25,301 nucleotides of DNA from a virus, in the UHGV virus genome UHGV-0254345. The stretch is one strand, 5' to 3'. Both the position numbers and the translations under genes were made by a program. The notes beneath the pieces were generated by a model, which was given only the letters and a program-made list of their open reading frames with translations, did not search any database and was not told the origin of the DNA. Each line of letters begins with the position of its first letter. The first letter of the stretch is position 1. Below, piece by piece: positions 231 to 21,832 of the stretch.

Positions 231-578
231 ATGATTGATGCAAAAGTGCTTGAAGGGGTTAAAAACTGGCTGAGTATTTACGGGCGTCTGACCTGCGGCA
301 TTCTGGCTGAAAAAATGAATATGCCGCCATCCTCGATGGTTTATTTTCTGCGTGATGCGGTCGATGCCGGGGTGCTGACGGAATGTAACGGTTTTTATGA
401 TATTCCGCGTCCCCGCCCGGTGCAGCCGGTTCGTCGCAAATGCAGCCAGGAAGGTGCGGCTGATGATGTTCAGTGGTGCAGCTTCAGAAAATCCCTGCCG
501 TGGATTGAGGGGCATGATATTCCGTCAATGGCGTGGGAATTTGCTCAGGGCGTTCTGACCTGTATTTGTCCTCCGTAA
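231..578 (+). CDS. putative HTH DNA-binding protein, probably C-terminally truncated by rearrangement
   Basis: ATG at 231 preceded by GGAGG (about 9 nt upstream); N-terminal helix-turn-helix-like segment; last 13 in-frame residues SMAWEFAQGVLTC are encoded by repeat A (521-563), then a 4-codon tail (ICPP) ends inside repeat B. Confidence 0.5.
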   Translation: MIDAKVLEGVKNWLSIYGRLTCGILAEKMNMPPSSMVYFLRDAVDAGVLTECNGFYDIPRPRPVQPVRRKCSQEGAADDVQWCSFRKSLPWIEGHDIPSMAWEFAQGVLTCICPP

Positions 579-747
579 AACGCAGTCCCTTAAAACAAAA
601 ACCACTGATACTGAATTCAAATACCGACCGGCACGCAACATTCAGCACGGCCTCAAGGCGTTTCGCCTCATCCTTAACTTTCTGGCAGTCCTGCTGATAT
701 TTTTGCCACGCGGCCAGCGCGGAAGGGTTTGATGTTTTAAAGAACAT
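484..747 (-). CDS. hypothetical protein; N-terminal part looks like the displaced 5' half of a gene (fused via repeat B to an out-of-frame tail)
   Basis: Minus-strand ATG (plus 745-747) preceded by GGAGG about 8 nt upstream on the minus strand, overlapping the stop of the upstream minus ORF as TAATG; contains repeat-B-encoded peptide FEFSISGFCFKGLRFTEDKY. Confidence 0.4.
   Translation of the reverse strand: MFFKTSNPSALAAWQKYQQDCQKVKDEAKRLEAVLNVACRSVFEFSISGFCFKGLRFTEDKYRSERPEQIPTPLTEYHAPQSTAGIF
521..563. repeat. inverted repeat A (43 bp), partner at 948-990
   Basis: tccgtcaatggcgtgggaatttgctcagggcgttctgacctgt is the exact reverse complement of 948-990 by direct comparison. Confidence 0.9.
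564..619. repeat. inverted repeat B (56 bp), partner at 991-1046
   Basis: atttgtcctccgtaaaacgcagtcccttaaaacaaaaaccactgatactgaattca is the exact reverse complement of 991-1046; abuts repeat A. Confidence 0.9.
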
Positions 748-983
748 TACGCCACCTCCGCAGATATCCCGGCAGGCGCGGCCGTCCGGTCAACAATCAG
801 GTAACGCAGAACGCGCGAGGTGATATTCCAGCCGCTTAAACCGCAGATAATGACACCCAGGCGTATGTCGATATACGCCATCACAAACCGGGGCACGCCT
901 TCTTTCATGGCCTGCTCATCAACTTCAGCCACCACATAAACGGTTTCACAGGTCAGAACGCCCTGAGCAAATTCCCACGCCAT
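747..983 (-). CDS. hypothetical protein fragment; looks like the displaced 3' half of the gene at 231-578
   Basis: Begins MAWEFAQGVLTC (encoded by repeat A' in the same frame as in ORF 231-578); no clear SD before its ATG; stop overlaps next minus ORF start. Confidence 0.35.
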   Translation of the reverse strand: MAWEFAQGVLTCETVYVVAEVDEQAMKEGVPRFVMAYIDIRLGVIICGLSGWNITSRVLRYLIVDRTAAPAGISAEVA

Positions 984-990
984 TGACGGA
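948..990. repeat. inverted repeat A' (reverse complement of 521-563)
   Basis: Exact 43-bp reverse-complement match. Confidence 0.9.
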
Positions 991-1378
991 TGAATTCAGT
1001 ATCAGTGGTTTTTGTTTTAAGGGACTGCGTTTTACGGAGGACAAATATCCTTTTCATCGCGACTTATGGCGAAAACCGACTGCGTCGAATGGCTGGAGCT
1101 GCACGCCGCGCACATCGCGCATTCCCAAAGCCCTGCGCACTGCCTCTGACGAACTGAACAGTCTGTGGCGTGAATATTCGCCCGTCACGTATGCCAGAAC
1201 CGATGCCCTGTTGTTCTGGCTGGGCATTGATTTCTCAGCAATCCTGTATGGCCCTGTGGAGTGGTTCTGCGTTGACGATGTGATTTATCTTCAGTGCGGT
1301 GTAAAACCCGCAAATCAGAAAATGACCGAAATTCTGTCTGATGAGTTTTATGCTGCTGAAAAGCGAGTCAGGGGGTGA
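983..1378 (+). pseudogene. hypothetical protein lacking its native 5' end (start only via TTG, no SD)
   Basis: Frame is open from 854; first candidate start is TTG 983 with no RBS; N-terminal 20 aa duplicate the repeat-B peptide of the minus ORF 484-747; ends 3 nt before the next gene. Confidence 0.4.
991..1046. repeat. inverted repeat B' (reverse complement of 564-619)
   Basis: Exact 56-bp reverse-complement match (a 57th base may also match). Confidence 0.9.
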
Positions 1379-1381
1379 TGC

Positions 1382-1933
1382 ATGATGAAATTACAACCCA
1401 TGGGGCGAAAAGGTCGTGCACCTGCTCATGTCCGCCCGTGGACACCTGAAGAAGATGCGCTGCTGATTGCGCTTTATTCCTCCACCCCGGTTAAGGATAT
1501 TGCCGCCAGAATAAAAAGAAGTGTCTGGGCCGTATATAACCGGACTGGCGTATTGCGCAGTACATACCCGGAGTTGCTGAAATATAAACGACCGCGATTT
1601 ACACCTGATGAAGATAAATTTATCCGAAAAAATGCCCGGACAATGACCTGCCAGCAAATGGGGGATTATCTCGGACGTAATAAAGACTCTGTCAGGTGCC
1701 GCGCAGGAATGATTGGTGCCGGATTAACAAAGTGCGGTGAGTTACGCCCCGGCACACGTATATCTGATGAGGATGTTCGTCTTATACGTGCACTACGGGA
1801 TTCCGATTACCCTCGCCGTCTGTCATTCCGGGAAATTGGCGAAAAGTTTGGCATATCTGAACATTCTGCTCACGCTGTTTATTACCGTCGACGGACCGCC
1901 GAGGACGCTGTATTACGGGAGTTAACGCCATGA
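1382..1933 (+). CDS. putative DNA-binding protein with tandem Myb/SANT-like HTH repeats
   Basis: GGGGG SD-like run upstream of ATG; three repeats of a W/F-T-P-(E/D)-ED…L-like motif (PWTPEEDALL, RFTPDEDKFI, ISDEDVRLI) typical of Myb/SANT-type helix-turn-helix domains; stop overlaps next start (ATGA). Confidence 0.5.
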   Translation: MMKLQPMGRKGRAPAHVRPWTPEEDALLIALYSSTPVKDIAARIKRSVWAVYNRTGVLRSTYPELLKYKRPRFTPDEDKFIRKNARTMTCQQMGDYLGRNKDSVRCRAGMIGAGLTKCGELRPGTRISDEDVRLIRALRDSDYPRRLSFREIGEKFGISEHSAHAVYYRRRTAEDAVLRELTP

Positions 1934-2115
1934 TAAAGAGACTTGTATTTTTCGCAATTATCGTTCCAGTGTGGGGGACTGGTTTTATATTTGCGATTAC
2001 AGGAAACCTGTCCATTATGCCTGACATTTGGTTCTTTATCAGGATGTCGCTCTTCCTGTTTATTATGGATTTTCTCATCGGTATATACATTCGTATTTCC
2101 GGGAGGCGTAAATGA
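1930..2115 (+). CDS. small membrane protein (two predicted TM helices), hypothetical
   Basis: ATGA overlap with upstream stop; 61 aa, very hydrophobic (LVFFAIIVPVWGTGFIFAI… / MSLFLFIMDFLIGIYI); lies in AT-rich segment. Confidence 0.45.
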   Translation: MIKRLVFFAIIVPVWGTGFIFAITGNLSIMPDIWFFIRMSLFLFIMDFLIGIYIRISGRRK

Positions 2116-2486
2116 GAAAAATCACGTCCTTGTCAGAGTTACAGGAGATGAATATGAGCATTGAATTAAGAACGTCTTATGAATATCGTAAAATTCTTAT
2201 CGCCGGAGGTATGAAACCGGAAGATGCGGAAAAAATCGTTTCTTTTATGGATAAAGAATGTGACAAACGGGATGTGCCAGAAATTATTATGGATGACATG
2301 ATTCTGGATTCAGCCGTAGCGTTAAGTCCGTTATGGATTGTGCATTCTCTTGCAGAAATTGCCAGAGGCACCGATAAAATGGCTGCTGTTGCTGCCCTTC
2401 AGACGCTTAATGAAATGCGTATATCTCCACGCCCGACATTAATACATATGATTCTGTCCAGCATGGAGGATAAAGCTAATGAATAG
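2112..2486 (+). CDS. hypothetical protein (acidic, soluble)
   Basis: ATGA overlap with upstream stop; 124-aa ORF in AT-rich segment; no recognised motif. Confidence 0.45.
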   Translation: MRKITSLSELQEMNMSIELRTSYEYRKILIAGGMKPEDAEKIVSFMDKECDKRDVPEIIMDDMILDSAVALSPLWIVHSLAEIARGTDKMAAVAALQTLNEMRISPRPTLIHMILSSMEDKANE

Positions 2487-2676
2487 TCTACCCGCTGGAT
2501 GGGCGCGGCCATTGATGGCTAAGAAGCATCATTTTTTTAAAACAGGTGAAAATATCAGTATATGTGGGCGGTGGTTATATCTGGCTCATAATCGCGAGCC
2601 GGATACATTTGAAAGCCCTGATGACTGTGCCGAATGCCGCAGAAGACTGAATAAGGAGAAAGATAATGGACAGTAG
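2479..2676 (+). CDS. small hypothetical protein, possible Cys-containing metal-binding motif
   Basis: Overlaps upstream stop; 65 aa with ICGRW…DDCAEC spacing; weakly supported. Confidence 0.35.
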   Translation: MNSLPAGWARPLMAKKHHFFKTGENISICGRWLYLAHNREPDTFESPDDCAECRRRLNKEKDNGQ

Positions 2677-2962
2677 TTCGCAGTTGTTCTGGTGTTTATA
2701 TATCACATCGTTTTTCGGTGCATTCGTCATTACACGATGGCTGTGCCGGAAAGTTATCAGTATTTTTCATAAAAAATACCTGATTGGGCTGGCGGCGGCT
2801 TCTCTGATTAATGCACTTGCCAGATATCATAAGGGGGAATACTACTCAAGAATAAAAACTGTTGATGGTTTTAATATTTTTGTGATTCCTCCGGAGTATC
2901 GGGTTCAGCTCGATCGGGAAAATAATATCTATCATATCAGCAGGAGTGTTGATACAGCATGA
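2666..2962 (+). CDS. hypothetical protein with N-terminal TM segment
   Basis: Overlaps upstream stop and its own stop overlaps the gemA-like start (ATGA); hydrophobic N-terminus LFWCLYITSFFGAFVI. Confidence 0.45.
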   Translation: MDSSSQLFWCLYITSFFGAFVITRWLCRKVISIFHKKYLIGLAAASLINALARYHKGEYYSRIKTVDGFNIFVIPPEYRVQLDRENNIYHISRSVDTA

Positions 2963-3468
2963 GAGGGAAACTGATATCCGCCATTCATGTGGCAAAGCGC
3001 GAGCTTGCCCTGGATGATGAAACCTATACATTCGTTCTGCTGGCAGCCACCGGCAAATCCAGTTGCCGGGATATGTCACCGGATGAGTTATCCCGCGTGC
3101 TGGATGTTTTCAAAAAACGCGGTTTTAAAGTGCGTCAGAAACCGGTTAACCGGGCCTTAAAACCGGGTACGGTGACCGCCAAAATTCGCGCCATCTGGAA
3201 GGTAATGCACCGGCAGGGCTTTATCGCTGATGGCGGGGAAACGGCCCTTAACCGCTGGGTGAAGTCGCAGACGGCCGCGCAGAACGGTGGCGAAGGTGTG
3301 GCTAACTGGCAGTGGCTGGAGCAACACCCCGCACTGGCCTCGGATGTGCTGGAGCGTCTCAAACGCTGGCACCGTCGCAAGATGCTGGATGTGCTGGGGA
3401 TGTCAGCGCGTACAGTGATGAGTTATGAGCGCGTTTGCAGGCTGTATGAAGAATTCTCCCCTTTTTAA
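2959..3468 (+). CDS. gemA: GemA-like regulatory protein (Mu gp16 family)
   Basis: 169 aa; N-terminal MRGKLISAIHVAKRELALDDETY… resembles the GemA/gp16 family as remembered; position immediately upstream of the Mor/C activator matches Mu-like synteny. Confidence 0.6.
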   Translation: MRGKLISAIHVAKRELALDDETYTFVLLAATGKSSCRDMSPDELSRVLDVFKKRGFKVRQKPVNRALKPGTVTAKIRAIWKVMHRQGFIADGGETALNRWVKSQTAAQNGGEGVANWQWLEQHPALASDVLERLKRWHRRKMLDVLGMSARTVMSYERVCRLYEEFSPF

Positions 3469-3472
3469 CCCC

Positions 3473-3503
3473 AAATCCCGCCACAGCGCGGGATTTTTAT
3501 TTT
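3473..3503 (+). terminator. rho-independent terminator
   Basis: 9-bp perfect stem AAATCCCGC / GCGGGATTT (3473-3481 / 3488-3496), 6-nt loop, followed by TTATTTT; sits 5 nt after the gemA-like stop. Confidence 0.7.
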
Positions 3504-11422: not shown

Positions 11423-11505
11423 CGGTCAGTGGCGGGGGTCGAACCCGCATACATGATCCACCCGGAGGCAGGCACCGACTTTACCAGTTAAGCGTACACT
11501 GACCG
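11423..11505 (-). other. tRNA-like structured element (acceptor-like stem plus canonical T-arm; no anticodon arm found)
   Basis: On the minus strand: 9-bp perfect stem (11423-11431 with 11497-11505) stacked on a 5-bp stem GCGGG/CCCGC closing a 7-nt loop TTCGACC (T-loop-like); a D-arm-like hairpin with GG loop is possible; hand search found no 5-bp anticodon stem. Confidence 0.3.
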
Positions 11506-18420: not shown

Positions 18421-20496
18421 ATGGCCCGAAATCTCAGAGCATCTCTGATAGTTGATTTGCTCGGCAATATCTCAGCCAAATCCCGCCAGTGGTCACAGGA
18501 GCTGGGGGCATTCTCACGCTCCGGCCAGGCGGGGCTGGGTGGCCTGGGAAATGCTGCCCGCCGTGCCGGGCAGGAAACAGATGTACTCGGAAGCAGGATG
18601 CAGCGCACGCTGGCCGGGGTGCGGGGCAGTATCCGCCATGTCACTTCTGATTTTGACCGTCTTCAGGGCAGTATTACCGGCACCATCGGGCGGATCAGCA
18701 ATCTTTACGGAATGCTGGCCGGTGGTGCTGCTGTATATGGCTTTAACCGGGGATTTATTCGCCCGGCAGCGGAGATGGAAACCTATATGATTCGCCTGAA
18801 CTCCCTTTACAAAGGGGATCGGGCGAAAACTGATGATGTCCGCAGGTGGGCAATACAGAATGCGAAGGAAACCACCTGGGGGCTGGCTGGCGTCATGCAG
18901 GAATATACGTCCAGTCTGGGCTTTGGTATGAGTGACAGGGAGGCCCGAAATTTTGTCACCATGCTTCAGGATCAGGGTGCCGTGGGCGGCTGGTCACTGT
19001 CCGATGCACAGGGGGCATCCCTGCAACTGAAACAGATGTATGCAAGAGGCAGTATTCAGGCGGCGGATGCAAATATTCTTGCCACCTACGGCATTAATGC
19101 CTACCGCGTGCTGGCTGATCGTCTGGGTGTGGACCAGAAAGTGGTCAGAAAACTTGGTGAAAAAGGGCTGCTTGGGCCGGACAGTATTCGCCTGTTATTT
19201 CAGACGCTGGCGGAACAGGCCAGGGGAGCACAAAAGGACGCAATGAATTCCTGGAGTGGCCTGACGGCCATGATGGGTGACGTCTGGGACCAGTTTGCCC
19301 GGGATGTGATGGACAGTGGGCCATTTGAAAAACTGAAGGGTAATCTCAGGGGATTTCTTTCATGGGTTGACAGTGCCAAATCTGATGGCAGTTACCATTC
19401 CCTGGCGGAAAGCACGGCATCAGCCATGAACCAGGGCTTTGAGTATGCCCGTGATGCAGTGACAGGGTTTTATCAGGCGATCAGAAAGGTACGCGACACG
19501 CTTCAGGCTCTGCGGGATGCGGGCTATGGTGATGCGCTGGATCGCATTGGTCAGGGGGCACAGACCGCCGCGAAATACCTGCTGTACATGTATCTCGCCA
19601 CCCGTGCCCTGAAAATGGCGCGAGCTGTCGGAACGGGGATTATACGTCCGGGTGCTGCATTGCTGGGATACGGATTATCAGCGGCGGCCTTCCTGACCTC
19701 ACCTTTCCGGCGCTCTCCTCCGGCCGGAACACCACCAGGCACATCTCAGGGACGAGGGCAACGTTTTATAAACTTTCTTACCGGGGTAAATCCGGCAGCC
19801 GTTCAGCCAGTACTTGTAACAAACTGGCCCACAGGAGGACTGTCCGGCACCGGCGCGACCGATACATCCTCAGGCGGACGTCAGGGGCGGGGCCGCAGGA
19901 AACGCGGACCGGGGCGCGGAAGACCGGTCACGCCCCCCCTGCCACCGTCCCCAGTGCCACCGTCTCCCTCTTCTGGTGGGGCAGGGTTCTGGGGGCGCAT
20001 GATGGGGCGCGCCGGTGGGTTACTTTCGTCTGTCGGTAGCCGCATGGGGCTGGGGCGTTTCTCCGGCTTTTTCCGCAGTGCCGGTGGACTGGCCGGCCGG
20101 CTGGGTGGAGGTGCCCTGTGGGCTGGCGCGATGGCAGCCCCGGTTCTGCTGGATGGCAGCGCCAGTGCCACAGACAAGGGAGAAGCGGTCGGCTCTCTTG
20201 CAGGCAGTATTGCCGGTGGTGCGCTGGGGGCGGCAGCCGGACCTGTGGGGATTGCCATTGGTTCTACGGTGGGCAGCTATCTCGGTAACTATCTGGGGGG
20301 ATGGCTGACTGAAGCCTGGCAGAAATTACGGGGCAGTGATGATGAAAGCAGTGGACAGGCGGTACAAAAAGCCTCTGCCCGTGTGGAGCTGGTTGCCCCG
20401 GAAGGGTGGCAGGCTCGCAGTATTGATATTGATGACACGTCCGGTCACGGACTGGATGTGAATGTCTGGAACGGAGGGAATTATGGCCTCTGGTGA
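18421..20496 (+). CDS. tail tape measure protein
   Basis: 691 aa; Gly/Pro/Arg-rich low-complexity C-terminal third; position after chaperone. Confidence 0.8.
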   Translation: MARNLRASLIVDLLGNISAKSRQWSQELGAFSRSGQAGLGGLGNAARRAGQETDVLGSRMQRTLAGVRGSIRHVTSDFDRLQGSITGTIGRISNLYGMLAGGAAVYGFNRGFIRPAAEMETYMIRLNSLYKGDRAKTDDVRRWAIQNAKETTWGLAGVMQEYTSSLGFGMSDREARNFVTMLQDQGAVGGWSLSDAQGASLQLKQMYARGSIQAADANILATYGINAYRVLADRLGVDQKVVRKLGEKGLLGPDSIRLLFQTLAEQARGAQKDAMNSWSGLTAMMGDVWDQFARDVMDSGPFEKLKGNLRGFLSWVDSAKSDGSYHSLAESTASAMNQGFEYARDAVTGFYQAIRKVRDTLQALRDAGYGDALDRIGQGAQTAAKYLLYMYLATRALKMARAVGTGIIRPGAALLGYGLSAAAFLTSPFRRSPPAGTPPGTSQGRGQRFINFLTGVNPAAVQPVLVTNWPTGGLSGTGATDTSSGGRQGRGRRKRGPGRGRPVTPPLPPSPVPPSPSSGGAGFWGRMMGRAGGLLSSVGSRMGLGRFSGFFRSAGGLAGRLGGGALWAGAMAAPVLLDGSASATDKGEAVGSLAGSIAGGALGAAAGPVGIAIGSTVGSYLGNYLGGWLTEAWQKLRGSDDESSGQAVQKASARVELVAPEGWQARSIDIDDTSGHGLDVNVWNGGNYGLW

Positions 20497-21832
20497 CGGT
20501 CGTGGTGCGTTCCGTGGTGTGCCGTTCCTCGTCTGGCGTGAGCAGCGCGAACGTGGCGGGCGAAACATTGTCCGTCGGGAGTATCCGTTACGGGAAACCG
20601 GTGGTGCAGACGATCTGGGACCTAAACTGGCTGAATTTACGTTCAGTGTACTTGTGATGGGGGATGATGTTCAGACACAGCGAAATCGTCTGCGTGATGC
20701 CCTTCGTGCTCCCGGTGCCGGGGAGCTGCTTCACCCGGATTACGGCACGTTAAATGTGCTGATAAACAGCTTTGAAAGTCGTTATAACGCTGCTGAACAG
20801 GGCGTGGTTGAGTTCACCATTAATGTCACGCCGGTAAGTGATGATACCGCACCTGCTGTCACACAGGACACGGCCGCCATTCTGGAGCAGAAGAGTACCA
20901 CCGCGCTCGGGAAGGTTTTTGAAACCCTGGAAGCGGGCTGGACGGTGATTTCTGACGGAATGCACGATGTCCAGGCAATGACCGAAACCATCAGCGATAA
21001 GGTGTCCGCCCTGGAAAATGCCGTTTCCGGCATGGGGATTGTACAGGATATCAGTGCCTTTACTGCCACGTTCACGGCGCTGAAAGGGAATGCCACGGCA
21101 TTACTGACAGCACCTTCCCGCATGGCCTCATCTTTTGCGGGGCTTTTCAGTGCCCTGATCACCCTGCCATCGCTGCCGTCACTGTCTTCAGGAGGCCTGA
21201 ATACCCGGCCCGGAGGCAGTATCGGTCGGACGACATCCGCCGTCTCTCAGGGAATGCCGCAACTGTACAGGACATTATCTTCCCTGCGTTACGTGCTGGA
21301 TGAGCAGGATAATCCGCAGACTCTCATCGGTCTGACACCGGCAGCACAAAAGAATATTCGTCTGATACGGGCGGTAATGCAGAGTGCTGCCGTGGTGGCC
21401 CAGGCACAGACCGTGGGAAAACTGCTGGATCAGGTTCTCAGTCAGGAAACCCTGCCGGACAGTGACGCAGCCCACCGTACCTGGCCTGTCTGGCTGGAAA
21501 GTTCAGTTGATCTTCAGCGCATTAACCGTGACTTAAGCGAAGCGCTCGAACGGCAGGTGATGACACTGTCCGGGCAGGGGTATACCGCCACGGCGCTGAC
21601 GCTTCGTGATGCCAGACTGGCACTGACAGAGGATCTGAATACACGGGGAGTTCAGCTACCCGGTGCAACAGTAGTGACTGTACGTACCACCGAGCCTGCA
21701 CTGGTGACCCTGTACCGTGCCACCGGGAACAGTACCGGCTGGCAACGTTTTGTGCGCCGTAACGGTATTGTTGATCCGCTGTTCATTCCCGGAGGCCATT
21801 CAGTGGAGGTGATTAGTGAGCAGCAGGGTTGA
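20483..21832 (+). CDS. DNA circularization protein N-like tail protein
   Basis: ATG 20483 preceded by GGAGGG (preferred over the ORF-track start at 20462); about 449 aa; Mu gene order TMP-N-P. Confidence 0.7.
   Translation: MASGDGRGAFRGVPFLVWREQRERGGRNIVRREYPLRETGGADDLGPKLAEFTFSVLVMGDDVQTQRNRLRDALRAPGAGELLHPDYGTLNVLINSFESRYNAAEQGVVEFTINVTPVSDDTAPAVTQDTAAILEQKSTTALGKVFETLEAGWTVISDGMHDVQAMTETISDKVSALENAVSGMGIVQDISAFTATFTALKGNATALLTAPSRMASSFAGLFSALITLPSLPSLSSGGLNTRPGGSIGRTTSAVSQGMPQLYRTLSSLRYVLDEQDNPQTLIGLTPAAQKNIRLIRAVMQSAAVVAQAQTVGKLLDQVLSQETLPDSDAAHRTWPVWLESSVDLQRINRDLSEALERQVMTLSGQGYTATALTLRDARLALTEDLNTRGVQLPGATVVTVRTTEPALVTLYRATGNSTGWQRFVRRNGIVDPLFIPGGHSVEVISEQQG

What the first reader, a model, noticed from the sequence alone, without database searches (positions are those of the whole stretch)
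1930..2962. AT-rich four-gene cassette of small proteins embedded in the early operon
From about 1930 to 2960 the base composition drops visibly (hand counts on several 60-nt lines give roughly 30-45% G+C, against clearly higher G+C in the late genes). It encodes four tightly overlapped small ORFs (61, 124, 65, 98 aa); two have predicted TM segments and one has a possible Cys motif. Compositionally deviant small membrane-protein cassettes inside phage operons are typical of horizontally acquired accessory modules (superinfection exclusion, host takeover, anti-defence or toxin-like functions). I could not recognise any of the four proteins, so this is a candidate for an undescribed accessory system.
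Basis: partly seen in the sequence, partly recalled or inferred. Interest (0 to 1): 0.65.

Follow-up and report, generated by a model that had tools for sequence, protein, structure and literature searches.

The report
Variable accessory-gene slot of Mu-like prophage
The AT-rich stretch is real and holds four genuine small genes of unknown function, but they are separately exchangeable passengers in the known variable spot of a Mu-like prophage's early operon in E. coli, not a new four-gene system.

Summary
Observation confirmed. Window 1930-2962 is 40.9% G+C, the lowest 1033-bp stretch in the window (rest 56.5%). Third-codon positions drop too. All four ORFs are real genes under purifying selection. 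One correction: the second ORF starts at 2154 (110 aa), not 2112.

The window is an E. coli Mu-like prophage. The four genes lie between the gp12-like gene and gemA, where phage Mu carries the unrelated gp13/gp14/Mu_54. This slot is AT-rich in every Mu-like phage examined, and its content changes between close relatives.

- A: 61 aa, two-pass membrane protein.
- B: 110 aa, acidic, helical, phrog_1988, also in SfMu.
- C: 65 aa, invariant His-Cys-Cys-Cys, about 990 clusters in many phage types, no Pfam family.
- D: 98 aa, conserved membrane anchor, and a C-terminal domain with two deeply diverged alleles.

Each gene is found without the others, so there is no obligate four-gene system. There is no promoter or terminator of their own. 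They sit inside the repressor-controlled early operon, so a role early in lytic growth (host takeover or counter-defence) is likelier than protection of the lysogen. No function could be assigned: there was no informative family or fold match. This is an ordinary accessory region; C and D are the parts worth an experiment.

The parts
983..1378 (+). Left conserved boundary: 3' part of the gp12-like gene. Its 5' part is displaced by the private inversion at 563-990.
   Evidence: 54% aa identity to Mu gp12; phrog_2314; PF26885 in related loci.
1382..1933 (+). 183-aa SANT/Myb plus HTH protein. It is absent from Mu and SfMu, is the first gene of the lineage-specific part of the slot, and has two alleles (about 72% and 96% aa identity).
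   Evidence: Pfam Myb and HTH hits below cut-off; phrog_323 at 2.5e-53; RefSeq name; alleles.
1930..2115 (+). Gene A: 61 aa, pI 11.5, two-pass inner-membrane hairpin with basic ends (KR at the N-terminus, RRK at the C-terminus). R38 is invariant. A membrane-embedded Asp sits at position 46 or at 51, depending on the variant.
   Evidence: dN/dS 0.24. No Pfam, PHROG, NCBIfam, PADLOC or PDB match. Present in 108 of 232 prophage-bearing complete E. coli genomes.
2154..2486 (+). Gene B: 110 aa, pI 4.9, predicted all-helical (six helices, low confidence). Conserved core LSPxWI...IAxGxDKxAAVxAL; the C-terminal tail varies. The upstream ATG at 2112 is probably not used.
   Evidence: phrog_1988 at 1.9e-43. 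33% identical to SfMu_14 and to proteins of Yersinia Mu-like phages. Start site. Model pLDDT 52.7.
2479..2676 (+). Gene C: 65 aa, putative zinc-binding protein. G7, W8, H18, C29, C50 and C53 are invariant. A basic C-terminal helix follows the CxxC.
   Evidence: phrog_2358 at 4.7e-34. 991 clusters at E<=1e-3. Alignment A5. No Pfam family in 49 members. Model pLDDT 74.
2666..2962 (+). Gene D: 98 aa. One N-terminal hydrophobic anchor (residues 7-23) is followed by basic residues, so a C-in topology is inferred. The C-terminal domain is about 65 aa.
   Evidence: phrog_17269 at 8.5e-66. Found only in E. coli Mu-like prophages. Hydropathy.
2719..2958 (+). Hypervariable segment of D. The two allele classes are about 50% identical in DNA here and 92-98% identical on either side. 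Identity returns to 98% exactly at the gemA start.
   Evidence: Allele counts are 65 and 163 complete E. coli genomes. Within allele 1, pN/pS is 1.08: 10 amino-acid-changing codons against 2 silent, Fisher p=0.005-0.01 against neighbouring genes.
2959..3468 (+). Right conserved boundary: gemA (gp16 family).
   Evidence: PF06252 at 1.2e-29; 47% identical to Mu GemA.
3473..3496 (+). Terminator-like hairpin (9-bp stem followed by a T-run) just after gemA. It is the only strong + strand terminator-like site between the ner-like gene and mor, so it is the probable end of the early transcript that carries the four genes.

Best explanation
The interval is the variable accessory slot of the semi-essential early region of an E. 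coli Mu-like prophage. It lies between the conserved gp12-like gene and gemA. It carries four real small genes that are inherited independently of one another and are unrelated to the genes Mu has there.

Shown:
- Low G+C, including third-codon positions.
- Coding under purifying selection.
- A slot whose content changes among near-identical prophages and which is AT-rich whatever it contains.
- Each gene occurs without the others.
- Tight co-directional packing with Shine-Dalgarno sites and overlapping stops and starts.
- No enrichment of promoter-like or terminator-like sites. The only strong terminator-like site comes after gemA.

Inferred:
- The genes are transcribed from the repressor-controlled early promoter in the first minutes after induction or infection, together with Gam.
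- They are dispensable for the core cycle.
- Each acts on its own on a host or competitor target, to condition the cell for lytic growth or to counter a barrier or defence.

Most likely modes, gene by gene, all at low confidence:
- A binds or perturbs an inner-membrane protein through a charged pair inside the membrane.
- D is tethered to the membrane and uses a fast-diverging cytoplasmic domain to bind a variable partner.
- C is a small zinc-stabilised adaptor that binds nucleic acid or a conserved host protein, and is used by many unrelated phages early in infection.
- B is a soluble acidic protein binder.
For: - Identity and position: 100% identical to the E. coli FORC_069 prophage. Gene order there is repressor, ner-like, transposase A, B, small ORFs, Gam, gp10/11/12-like, Myb, A, B, C, D, gemA, mor, lysozyme.
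- Flanks are conserved with Mu (gp11 71%, gp12 54%, GemA 47% aa identity). A-D have no match in the Mu slot (hhalign).
- Composition. Slot G+C is 41-48% against 50-56% in the flanks in 10 of 11 loci, including Mu, SfMu and a Yersinia phage.
- Real genes.
- Modularity: L007 has A+3 extra ORFs+B+C+D2. L010 has two other ORFs+B+C+D. L014 has B only. L016 has A+B+a Mu gp14 homologue. Salmonella L017 and L037 have C alone next to gemA. 39 of 58 IMG/VR loci carry C in non-Mu prophages. L087 and L088 have D2 alone.
- Operon membership.
- Arms-race signature in D.
- Precedent: phage 'accessory regions' are hotspots of variable, non-essential, horizontally moving genes. Mu E6/Mup07 (gnarl2), in the same early operon, alters the O-antigen barrier (bioRxiv 10.1101/2023.04.06.535777).
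Against: - No function was demonstrated for any of the four.
- There is no informative Pfam, NCBIfam, PADLOC or PDB match.
- Within the E. coli lineage, B, C and D co-occur in about 90% of prophages. Functional linkage of that trio is therefore not excluded by prevalence. It is argued against only by the exceptions and by their separate distributions outside the lineage.
- Two weak promoter-like sites lie inside B (2166-2194 and 2260-2287). Expression in the lysogen was not measured.
- The AT-rich DNA could also have a role of its own.
Confidence: 0.6

Rival explanations
1. One reading: a single, horizontally acquired four-gene accessory system whose parts work together, for example a membrane toxin or exclusion module with its regulators.
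For: The genes are adjacent, co-directional, translationally coupled and uniformly AT-rich. B, C and D co-occur in about 90% of the E. coli prophages of this lineage.
Against: Each gene occurs without the others. B is alone in L014 and in SfMu. A+B occur without C or D in L016. C is alone in Salmonella Mu-likes, in lambdoid-type prophages, and in virulent Pbunavirus and Wifcevirus phages. D2 is alone in L087 and L088. A is missing from about half the prophages, and extra genes are inserted between A and B in L007. No PADLOC match.
Confidence: 0.07
2. A lysogen-expressed protective module. The small membrane proteins A and/or D would be made in the prophage state and exclude superinfecting phages or act as a defence or abortive-infection element, as a moron does.
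For: Small membrane proteins in prophages often do this (general knowledge). D has two old alleles and an excess of amino-acid changes. Two weak promoter-like sites lie at 2166-2194 and 2260-2287.
Against: Promoter-like sites are not more frequent than in shuffled sequence (5 found, 5.5 expected). There is no terminator bracketing the genes. Stops and starts overlap with the upstream and downstream early genes. The whole array from the ner-like gene to gemA is one tight co-directional block under the repressor. Both weak sites lie downstream of A.
Confidence: 0.13
3. Phage-internal helpers rather than host-directed factors. The proteins would tune the phage's own transposition-replication or early-to-late switch, for example C as a small DNA-binding regulator working with the neighbouring Myb/HTH protein, GemA or Mor.
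For: The genes sit beside regulatory genes (Myb/HTH, gemA, mor). C has a basic helix after its CxxC, and in other phages it lies near replication and regulator genes: DNA polymerase, nuclease and helicase in 611R5, and a regulator and polymerase in Sa179lw.
Against: C occurs in phages with unrelated replication and regulatory schemes (transposable, lambdoid, virulent myo- and siphoviruses), which fits a host target better. A, B and D are missing from functional relatives such as Mu, and C and D from SfMu.
Confidence: 0.15
4. The ORFs are incidental. On this reading, what matters is the AT-rich DNA itself, for example a binding region for a nucleoid protein or a recombination hotspot, or else the ORFs are decaying remnants.
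For: The slot is AT-rich whatever genes it holds.
Against: dN/dS is 0.05-0.33 for all four, the reading frames are intact over hundreds of contigs, and each has a good ribosome-binding site. No repeats flank the interval and no RNA family matches.
Confidence: 0.03

Closest known systems
Phage Mu semi-essential early region, genes gp13/gp14/Mu_54 (E14, E15) between gp12 and gemA
   Same: Same position, flanks and strand. Same kind of content: two to four small ORFs of unknown function, one of them a small Cys-rich protein. The same dip in G+C (46.5% in Mu).
   Different: No sequence or profile similarity between A-D and the Mu genes. This lineage adds a 183-aa Myb/HTH protein. gemA is followed here by a terminator-like hairpin, whereas in Mu gemA overlaps mor.
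Phage 'accessory regions' of Silas et al. (bioRxiv 10.1101/2023.04.06.535777), including gnarl2 = Mu E6/Mup07
   Same: A cluster of small, variable, horizontally exchanged genes between conserved core genes, in the same Mu-type early operon where gnarl2 lies.
   Different: None of A-D has a tested phenotype. No homology to gnarl, Ocr, Ral, ArdA or similar proteins was found or tested here beyond the family scans.
exo-xis (early-left) region of lambda and Stx phages
   Same: A non-essential early block of small ORFs that influence host physiology. Relatives of C sit among DUF1627, DUF551, Ead/Ea22 and RNase_T genes typical of such regions. Background from PMC8614690.
   Different: C did not match the solved Ea8.5 structure or any other PDB chain convincingly, and it is not a C4 TraR-like protein. 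Its identity with any named exo-xis ORF was not established.
Lambdoid 'morons' (autonomous promoter-gene-terminator insertions of deviant composition)
   Same: Deviant, AT-rich composition. Presence or absence varies between relatives.
   Different: No promoter or terminator of their own. The genes are translationally coupled to their neighbours.
PHROG families phrog_1988, phrog_2358 and phrog_17269
   Same: B, C and D match them at E = 1.9e-43, 4.7e-34 and 8.5e-66.
   Different: All three are labelled 'unknown function'. A matches none. The phrog_2358 profile is 146 positions long and C covers only 4-67, so some members carry an extra C-terminal part, as in WFC_00106.

Membership tests
Variable accessory slot of the Mu-type semi-essential early region / phage accessory region | Bracketed by genes conserved across the phage group | tested here: met
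   gp11 71%, gp12 54% and GemA 47% aa identity to Mu. The same flanks are present in all related loci.
Variable accessory slot of the Mu-type semi-essential early region / phage accessory region | Gene content differs between otherwise closely related genomes | tested here: met
   At least eight architectures between gp12 and gemA.
Variable accessory slot of the Mu-type semi-essential early region / phage accessory region | Genes dispensable for the basic lytic cycle | not testable with these tools
   Only indirect: functional phages Mu and SfMu lack A, C and D.
Variable accessory slot of the Mu-type semi-essential early region / phage accessory region | Transcribed as part of the early operon | tested here: inconclusive
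   Tight co-directional array, overlapping stops and starts, no enrichment of promoter-like or terminator-like sites, first strong terminator-like site after gemA. No transcript data.
Orthologues of Mu gp13 / gp14 / Mu_54 | Detectable sequence or profile similarity | tested here: not met
   tblastn found no hit better than E=0.16. hhalign gave B against the gp14 family probability 0.2% and C against gp13 0.4%.
Moron | Own promoter and terminator flanking the insert | tested here: not met
   5 promoter-like sites against 5.5 expected, 6 terminator-like against 5.5 expected, and none brackets the interval.
Known anti-phage defence systems (PADLOC) | Match to a defence-protein model | tested here: not met
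   No hit at E<=1 for A-D or for the Myb protein.
Co-inherited multi-gene system | Components co-occur across lineages | tested here: not met
   Each of A, B, C and D was found without the others. Co-occurrence of about 90% holds only inside one closely related E. coli lineage.
Zinc-binding small domain (gene C) | Four invariant metal-ligand residues | tested here: met
   H18, C29, C50 and C53 are invariant in 49 sequences that are 30-63% identical to C.
Zinc-binding small domain (gene C) | Metal actually bound, with the ligands clustered in the fold | not testable with these tools
Kunitz/BPTI domain (gene C) | Six Cys forming three disulfides; match to PF00014; Kunitz fold | tested here: not met
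   [not shown]
Death-fold/CARD (gene B) | Significant sequence or fold match to a six-helix death fold | tested here: not met
   [not shown]
PHROG families 1988 / 2358 / 17269 | Significant profile match | tested here: met
   E = 1.9e-43, 4.7e-34 and 8.5e-66. A has no PHROG match.

The most novel reading that the evidence does not exclude
Two parts could be new biology.

(1) D may be a membrane-tethered specificity factor locked in an arms race. Its anchor is frozen (0 amino-acid changes against 9 silent changes between alleles). Its cytoplasmic domain exists as two ancient alleles, both common in E. coli (65 and 163 genomes). One allele shows as many amino-acid changes as neutral expectation. 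This suggests that D binds a polymorphic host defence or a rival-phage protein.

Probability: 0.2. Interest if true: 0.6.

Novelty: new member of a known kind. Interest (0 to 1): 0.3.

Why it matters
It is the ordinary variable accessory slot of Mu-type early operons, so it needs no special explanation. It also marks which pieces deserve bench time.

- C is a very widespread small protein with a likely zinc site, found in many unrelated phages, and it has no domain family and no known function.
- D has the population-genetic look of a gene in conflict with a variable partner.

Both are short, easy to clone, and sit in a prophage carried by about 4% of complete E. coli genomes, including O157:H7 and other Shiga-toxin strains.

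Tried and rejected
- Pfam, NCBIfam and PADLOC scans of A-D gave nothing usable.
- Domain fusions of C-family members gave only DUF551 or unknown partners.
- Neighbour families of C in non-Mu prophages are DUF1627, DUF551, Ead/Ea22 and RNase_T. That places C in early accessory regions but gives no function.
- A mutual-information contact analysis of the C family was dominated by conserved columns and was uninformative.
- The genome-contig scan for B found no relative. For C it found three, in Buttiauxella, Scandinavium and Raoultella.
- Rfam, tRNA and repeat scans of the interval were negative.
- Literature on SfMu, Pbunavirus early ORFans, the exo-xis region and Mu gave no function for any homologue.
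Full report
**What the window is.** Window 1700-3200 is 100% identical to the chromosome of E. coli FORC_069 and several other strains. RefSeq annotates the surrounding region as a Mu-like prophage. The order is repressor, ner-like HTH, Mu transposase, AAA ATPase (B), small ORFs, Gam, three hypothetical genes, a SANT/Myb-like protein, four hypothetical proteins, a gp16 (GemA) family protein, Mor, lysozyme, spanins, then terminase and head genes. Pfam confirms GemA (1.2e-29), Mor (4.9e-31), phage lysozyme (1.2e-35) and the Gp11 C-terminal domain. About 232 of 5426 complete E. coli genomes carry this region.

**Check of the observation.**
- Window 1930-2962 is 40.9% G+C and the rest of the window is 56.5%. 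No 1033-bp window anywhere in the sequence is lower (mean 55.9%, sd 3.8).
- GC3 falls to 0.38-0.47 in the four ORFs. It is 0.60-0.66 in gemA, mor and the lysozyme gene. The two soluble proteins are as AT-rich as the membrane ones. Amino-acid content therefore does not explain the dip.
- The four ORFs are present, and each has a Shine-Dalgarno sequence.
- Pairwise dN/dS against five related loci is A 0.24-0.33, B 0.15-0.18 and C 0.05-0.09, and 0.14-0.16 between the two D alleles. Pooled values over 21 loci agree. All four are real genes.
- One correction. The second ORF starts at ATG 2154 (110 aa), not 2112 (124 aa). AGGAG lies 6 nt upstream of 2154. All homologues and RefSeq begin there, and in L007 a different sequence precedes this start. 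A and B are therefore separated by 38 bp. The other junctions overlap by 4-11 nt.
- A is hydrophobic over residues 2-58 with a short polar loop, and D has one short anchor at residues 7-23.
- The 'Cys motif' is in C (see below).

**Where the genes sit.** Phage Mu (AF083977) has gp13 (60 aa, Cys-rich), gp14 (100 aa) and Mu_54 (55 aa) between gp12 and gemA. The window's flanks are homologous to Mu: gp11 71%, gp12 54% and GemA 47% aa identity. None of A-D matches anything in Mu's slot, and profile comparisons are also negative.

The slot has many architectures:
- SfMu and the Yersinia Mu-like phage vB_YpM_23: a small ORF (gp13 in SfMu), a B relative (30-33% aa identity), gp14, and in SfMu also a minus-strand ORF.
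- L007: Myb, A, three extra ORFs (one without a PHROG match, then phrog_6925 and phrog_6158), B, C, D allele 2.
- L010: Myb, phrog_6925, phrog_6158, B, C, D.
- L014: Myb, phrog_6925, phrog_6158, a B variant, a minus-strand DUF2513 gene.
- L016: Myb, A, a B variant, a Mu gp14 homologue (42% identity), a minus-strand ORF.
- Salmonella L017 and L037: a DUF2786/DUF7168 protein, C, gemA.
- L087 and L088: Myb, phrog_6925, D allele 2, gemA.

In the Mu-like loci of E. coli, Shigella and Yersinia the slot is 41-48% G+C against 50-56% in the flanks. Only the short Salmonella slot does not stand out. Low G+C is therefore a standing property of this slot, not the mark of one recent insertion.

**The four genes are not a system.**
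- Among complete E. coli genomes, A is found in 108, B in 214, C in 210, D allele 1 in 65 and D allele 2 in 163.
- B, C and D thus travel together in about 90% of this closely related lineage.
- Exceptions exist for every gene, as listed above.
- Outside the lineage their ranges differ completely. B is also in the Muvirus phages of Shigella and Yersinia. D and A are only in E. coli Mu-like prophages.
- Of 58 IMG/VR loci that carry C, 39 have no B, D or gemA nearby. There its neighbours are DUF1627, DUF551, Ead/Ea22-like and RNase_T genes, the content of lambdoid early accessory regions.
- No PADLOC model matches any of the four.

**Gene C.**
- tblastn finds it in 79 phage records. They include virulent Pseudomonas Pbunavirus phages (14-1 ORF85), Wifcevirus (as the N-terminal domain of the 177-aa WFC_00106), Buchananvirus, Shigella Sf11 and Pantoea PA1.
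- A profile search of 1.84 billion representatives finds 991 clusters at E<=1e-3, mostly 60-80 aa.
- In 49 diverse members G7, W8, H18, C29, C50 and C53 are invariant. P11, K16, F20 and S27 are nearly so. This is a His-Cys3 pattern with a basic helix after the CxxC.
- No Pfam family covers it. Fusions are uninformative.
- The AlphaFold2 model (pLDDT 74, pTM 0.58) has short strands at 7-9 and 17-20 and a helix at 51-63.
- The profile hits BPTI at E=5e-4. I regard that as coincidence, for the reasons in the membership table.

**Gene D.**
- The two allele classes are about 51% identical in protein.
- Residues 7-29, the anchor and juxtamembrane basic stretch, differ by 9 silent and 0 amino-acid changes. 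Residues 36-98 differ at 42 amino-acid-changing and 12 silent codons.
- DNA identity is about 50% from 2779 to 2958 and returns to 98% exactly at the gemA start.
- Within allele 1, silent diversity is ten times lower than in neighbouring genes (pS 0.015 against 0.12-0.16), and pN/pS is 1.08. There are 10 amino-acid-changing codons against 2 silent ones (Fisher p=0.01 against B+C, p=0.005 against all neighbours).
- This fits a recently spread allele under relaxed or diversifying selection. It is the clearest conflict-type signal in the interval.

**Genes A and B.**
- A is strongly conserved. R38 is invariant. An acidic residue lies at position 46 in some variants and at 51 in others, which suggests a required charge inside the membrane.
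- B is acidic (pI 4.9) with a conserved core and alternative C-terminal tails.

**Expression logic (inference).**
- From the ner-like gene to gemA the genes form one tight co-directional block.
- Promoter-like and terminator-like sites are no more frequent than in shuffled sequence.
- The only strong + strand terminator-like hairpin before mor follows gemA, at window 3473-3496.
- By analogy with Mu, this block is transcribed from the repressor-controlled early promoter, so the four proteins should appear at induction or infection and not in the lysogen.
- That makes lytic-phase host takeover or counter-defence more likely than superinfection exclusion by the lysogen.
- Precedent: phage accessory regions are described as hotspots of variable counter-defence genes. 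Mu E6/Mup07 (gnarl2), from the same operon, alters the O-antigen barrier (bioRxiv 10.1101/2023.04.06.535777).

**Verdict.** The interpretation as a novel four-gene system is not. This is a new instance of a known kind, the variable accessory slot of a Mu-type early operon, filled with catalogued proteins of unknown function. No mechanism could be shown. The proposals for each gene are inferences from sequence features and context.

Noticed in passing
window 521-1047: Window 563-990 is the reverse complement of the reference arrangement (FORC_069, L001 10921-11348). The junctions are duplicated: 43 bp (521-563 is the reverse complement of 948-990) and 57 bp (991-1047 is the reverse complement of 563-619). 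The rearrangement splits both the gp11-like and gp12-like genes. None of the 233 E. coli records with this region has it, so it is either an assembly artefact or a private inversion-duplication.
   Followed up: yes
window 3473-3496: A strong terminator-like hairpin followed by a T-run separates gemA from mor. In Mu the two genes overlap and the annotated terminator follows mor. This lineage also shows only one Mor/C-family gene before the lysozyme gene.
   Followed up: partly
window 2479-2676 (family alignment A5): The C-family profile matches bovine pancreatic trypsin inhibitor at E=5e-4 over 40 residues. It does not match other Kunitz domains, and the structure model shows no Kunitz neighbour. 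Probably chance.
   Followed up: yes
[not shown]
   Followed up: no
window 1382-1933: The 183-aa SANT/Myb plus HTH protein upstream of the four genes is absent from Mu and SfMu. It exists as two alleles, about 72% and 96% identical to the window's copy. PHROGs labels the family a 'D5-like transcriptional regulator'.
   Followed up: partly
L088 3334-3675 (minus strand); same position in L087: Some relatives carry an extra region of about 700-800 bp, with a 113-aa minus-strand ORF, between gemA and mor. This is a second variable spot, right after the terminator-like hairpin.
   Followed up: no
window about 11424-11503 (L001 21725-21804, minus strand): RefSeq annotates a 'tRNA-OTHER' here, between the head-morphogenesis and virion-morphogenesis genes. 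ARAGORN and Rfam find no tRNA or RNA family anywhere in the window.
   Followed up: partly
window about 19500-20500: G+C rises to 62-67% with strong positive GC skew. This is the compositional opposite of the finding and lies in the late region.
   Followed up: no
window 1930-2115: In gene A the membrane-embedded acidic residue is at position 46 (IMDFLIG) in some variants and at 51 (IMNLLID) in others, while R38 stays fixed. This looks like a compensatory relocation of a buried charge.
   Followed up: partly
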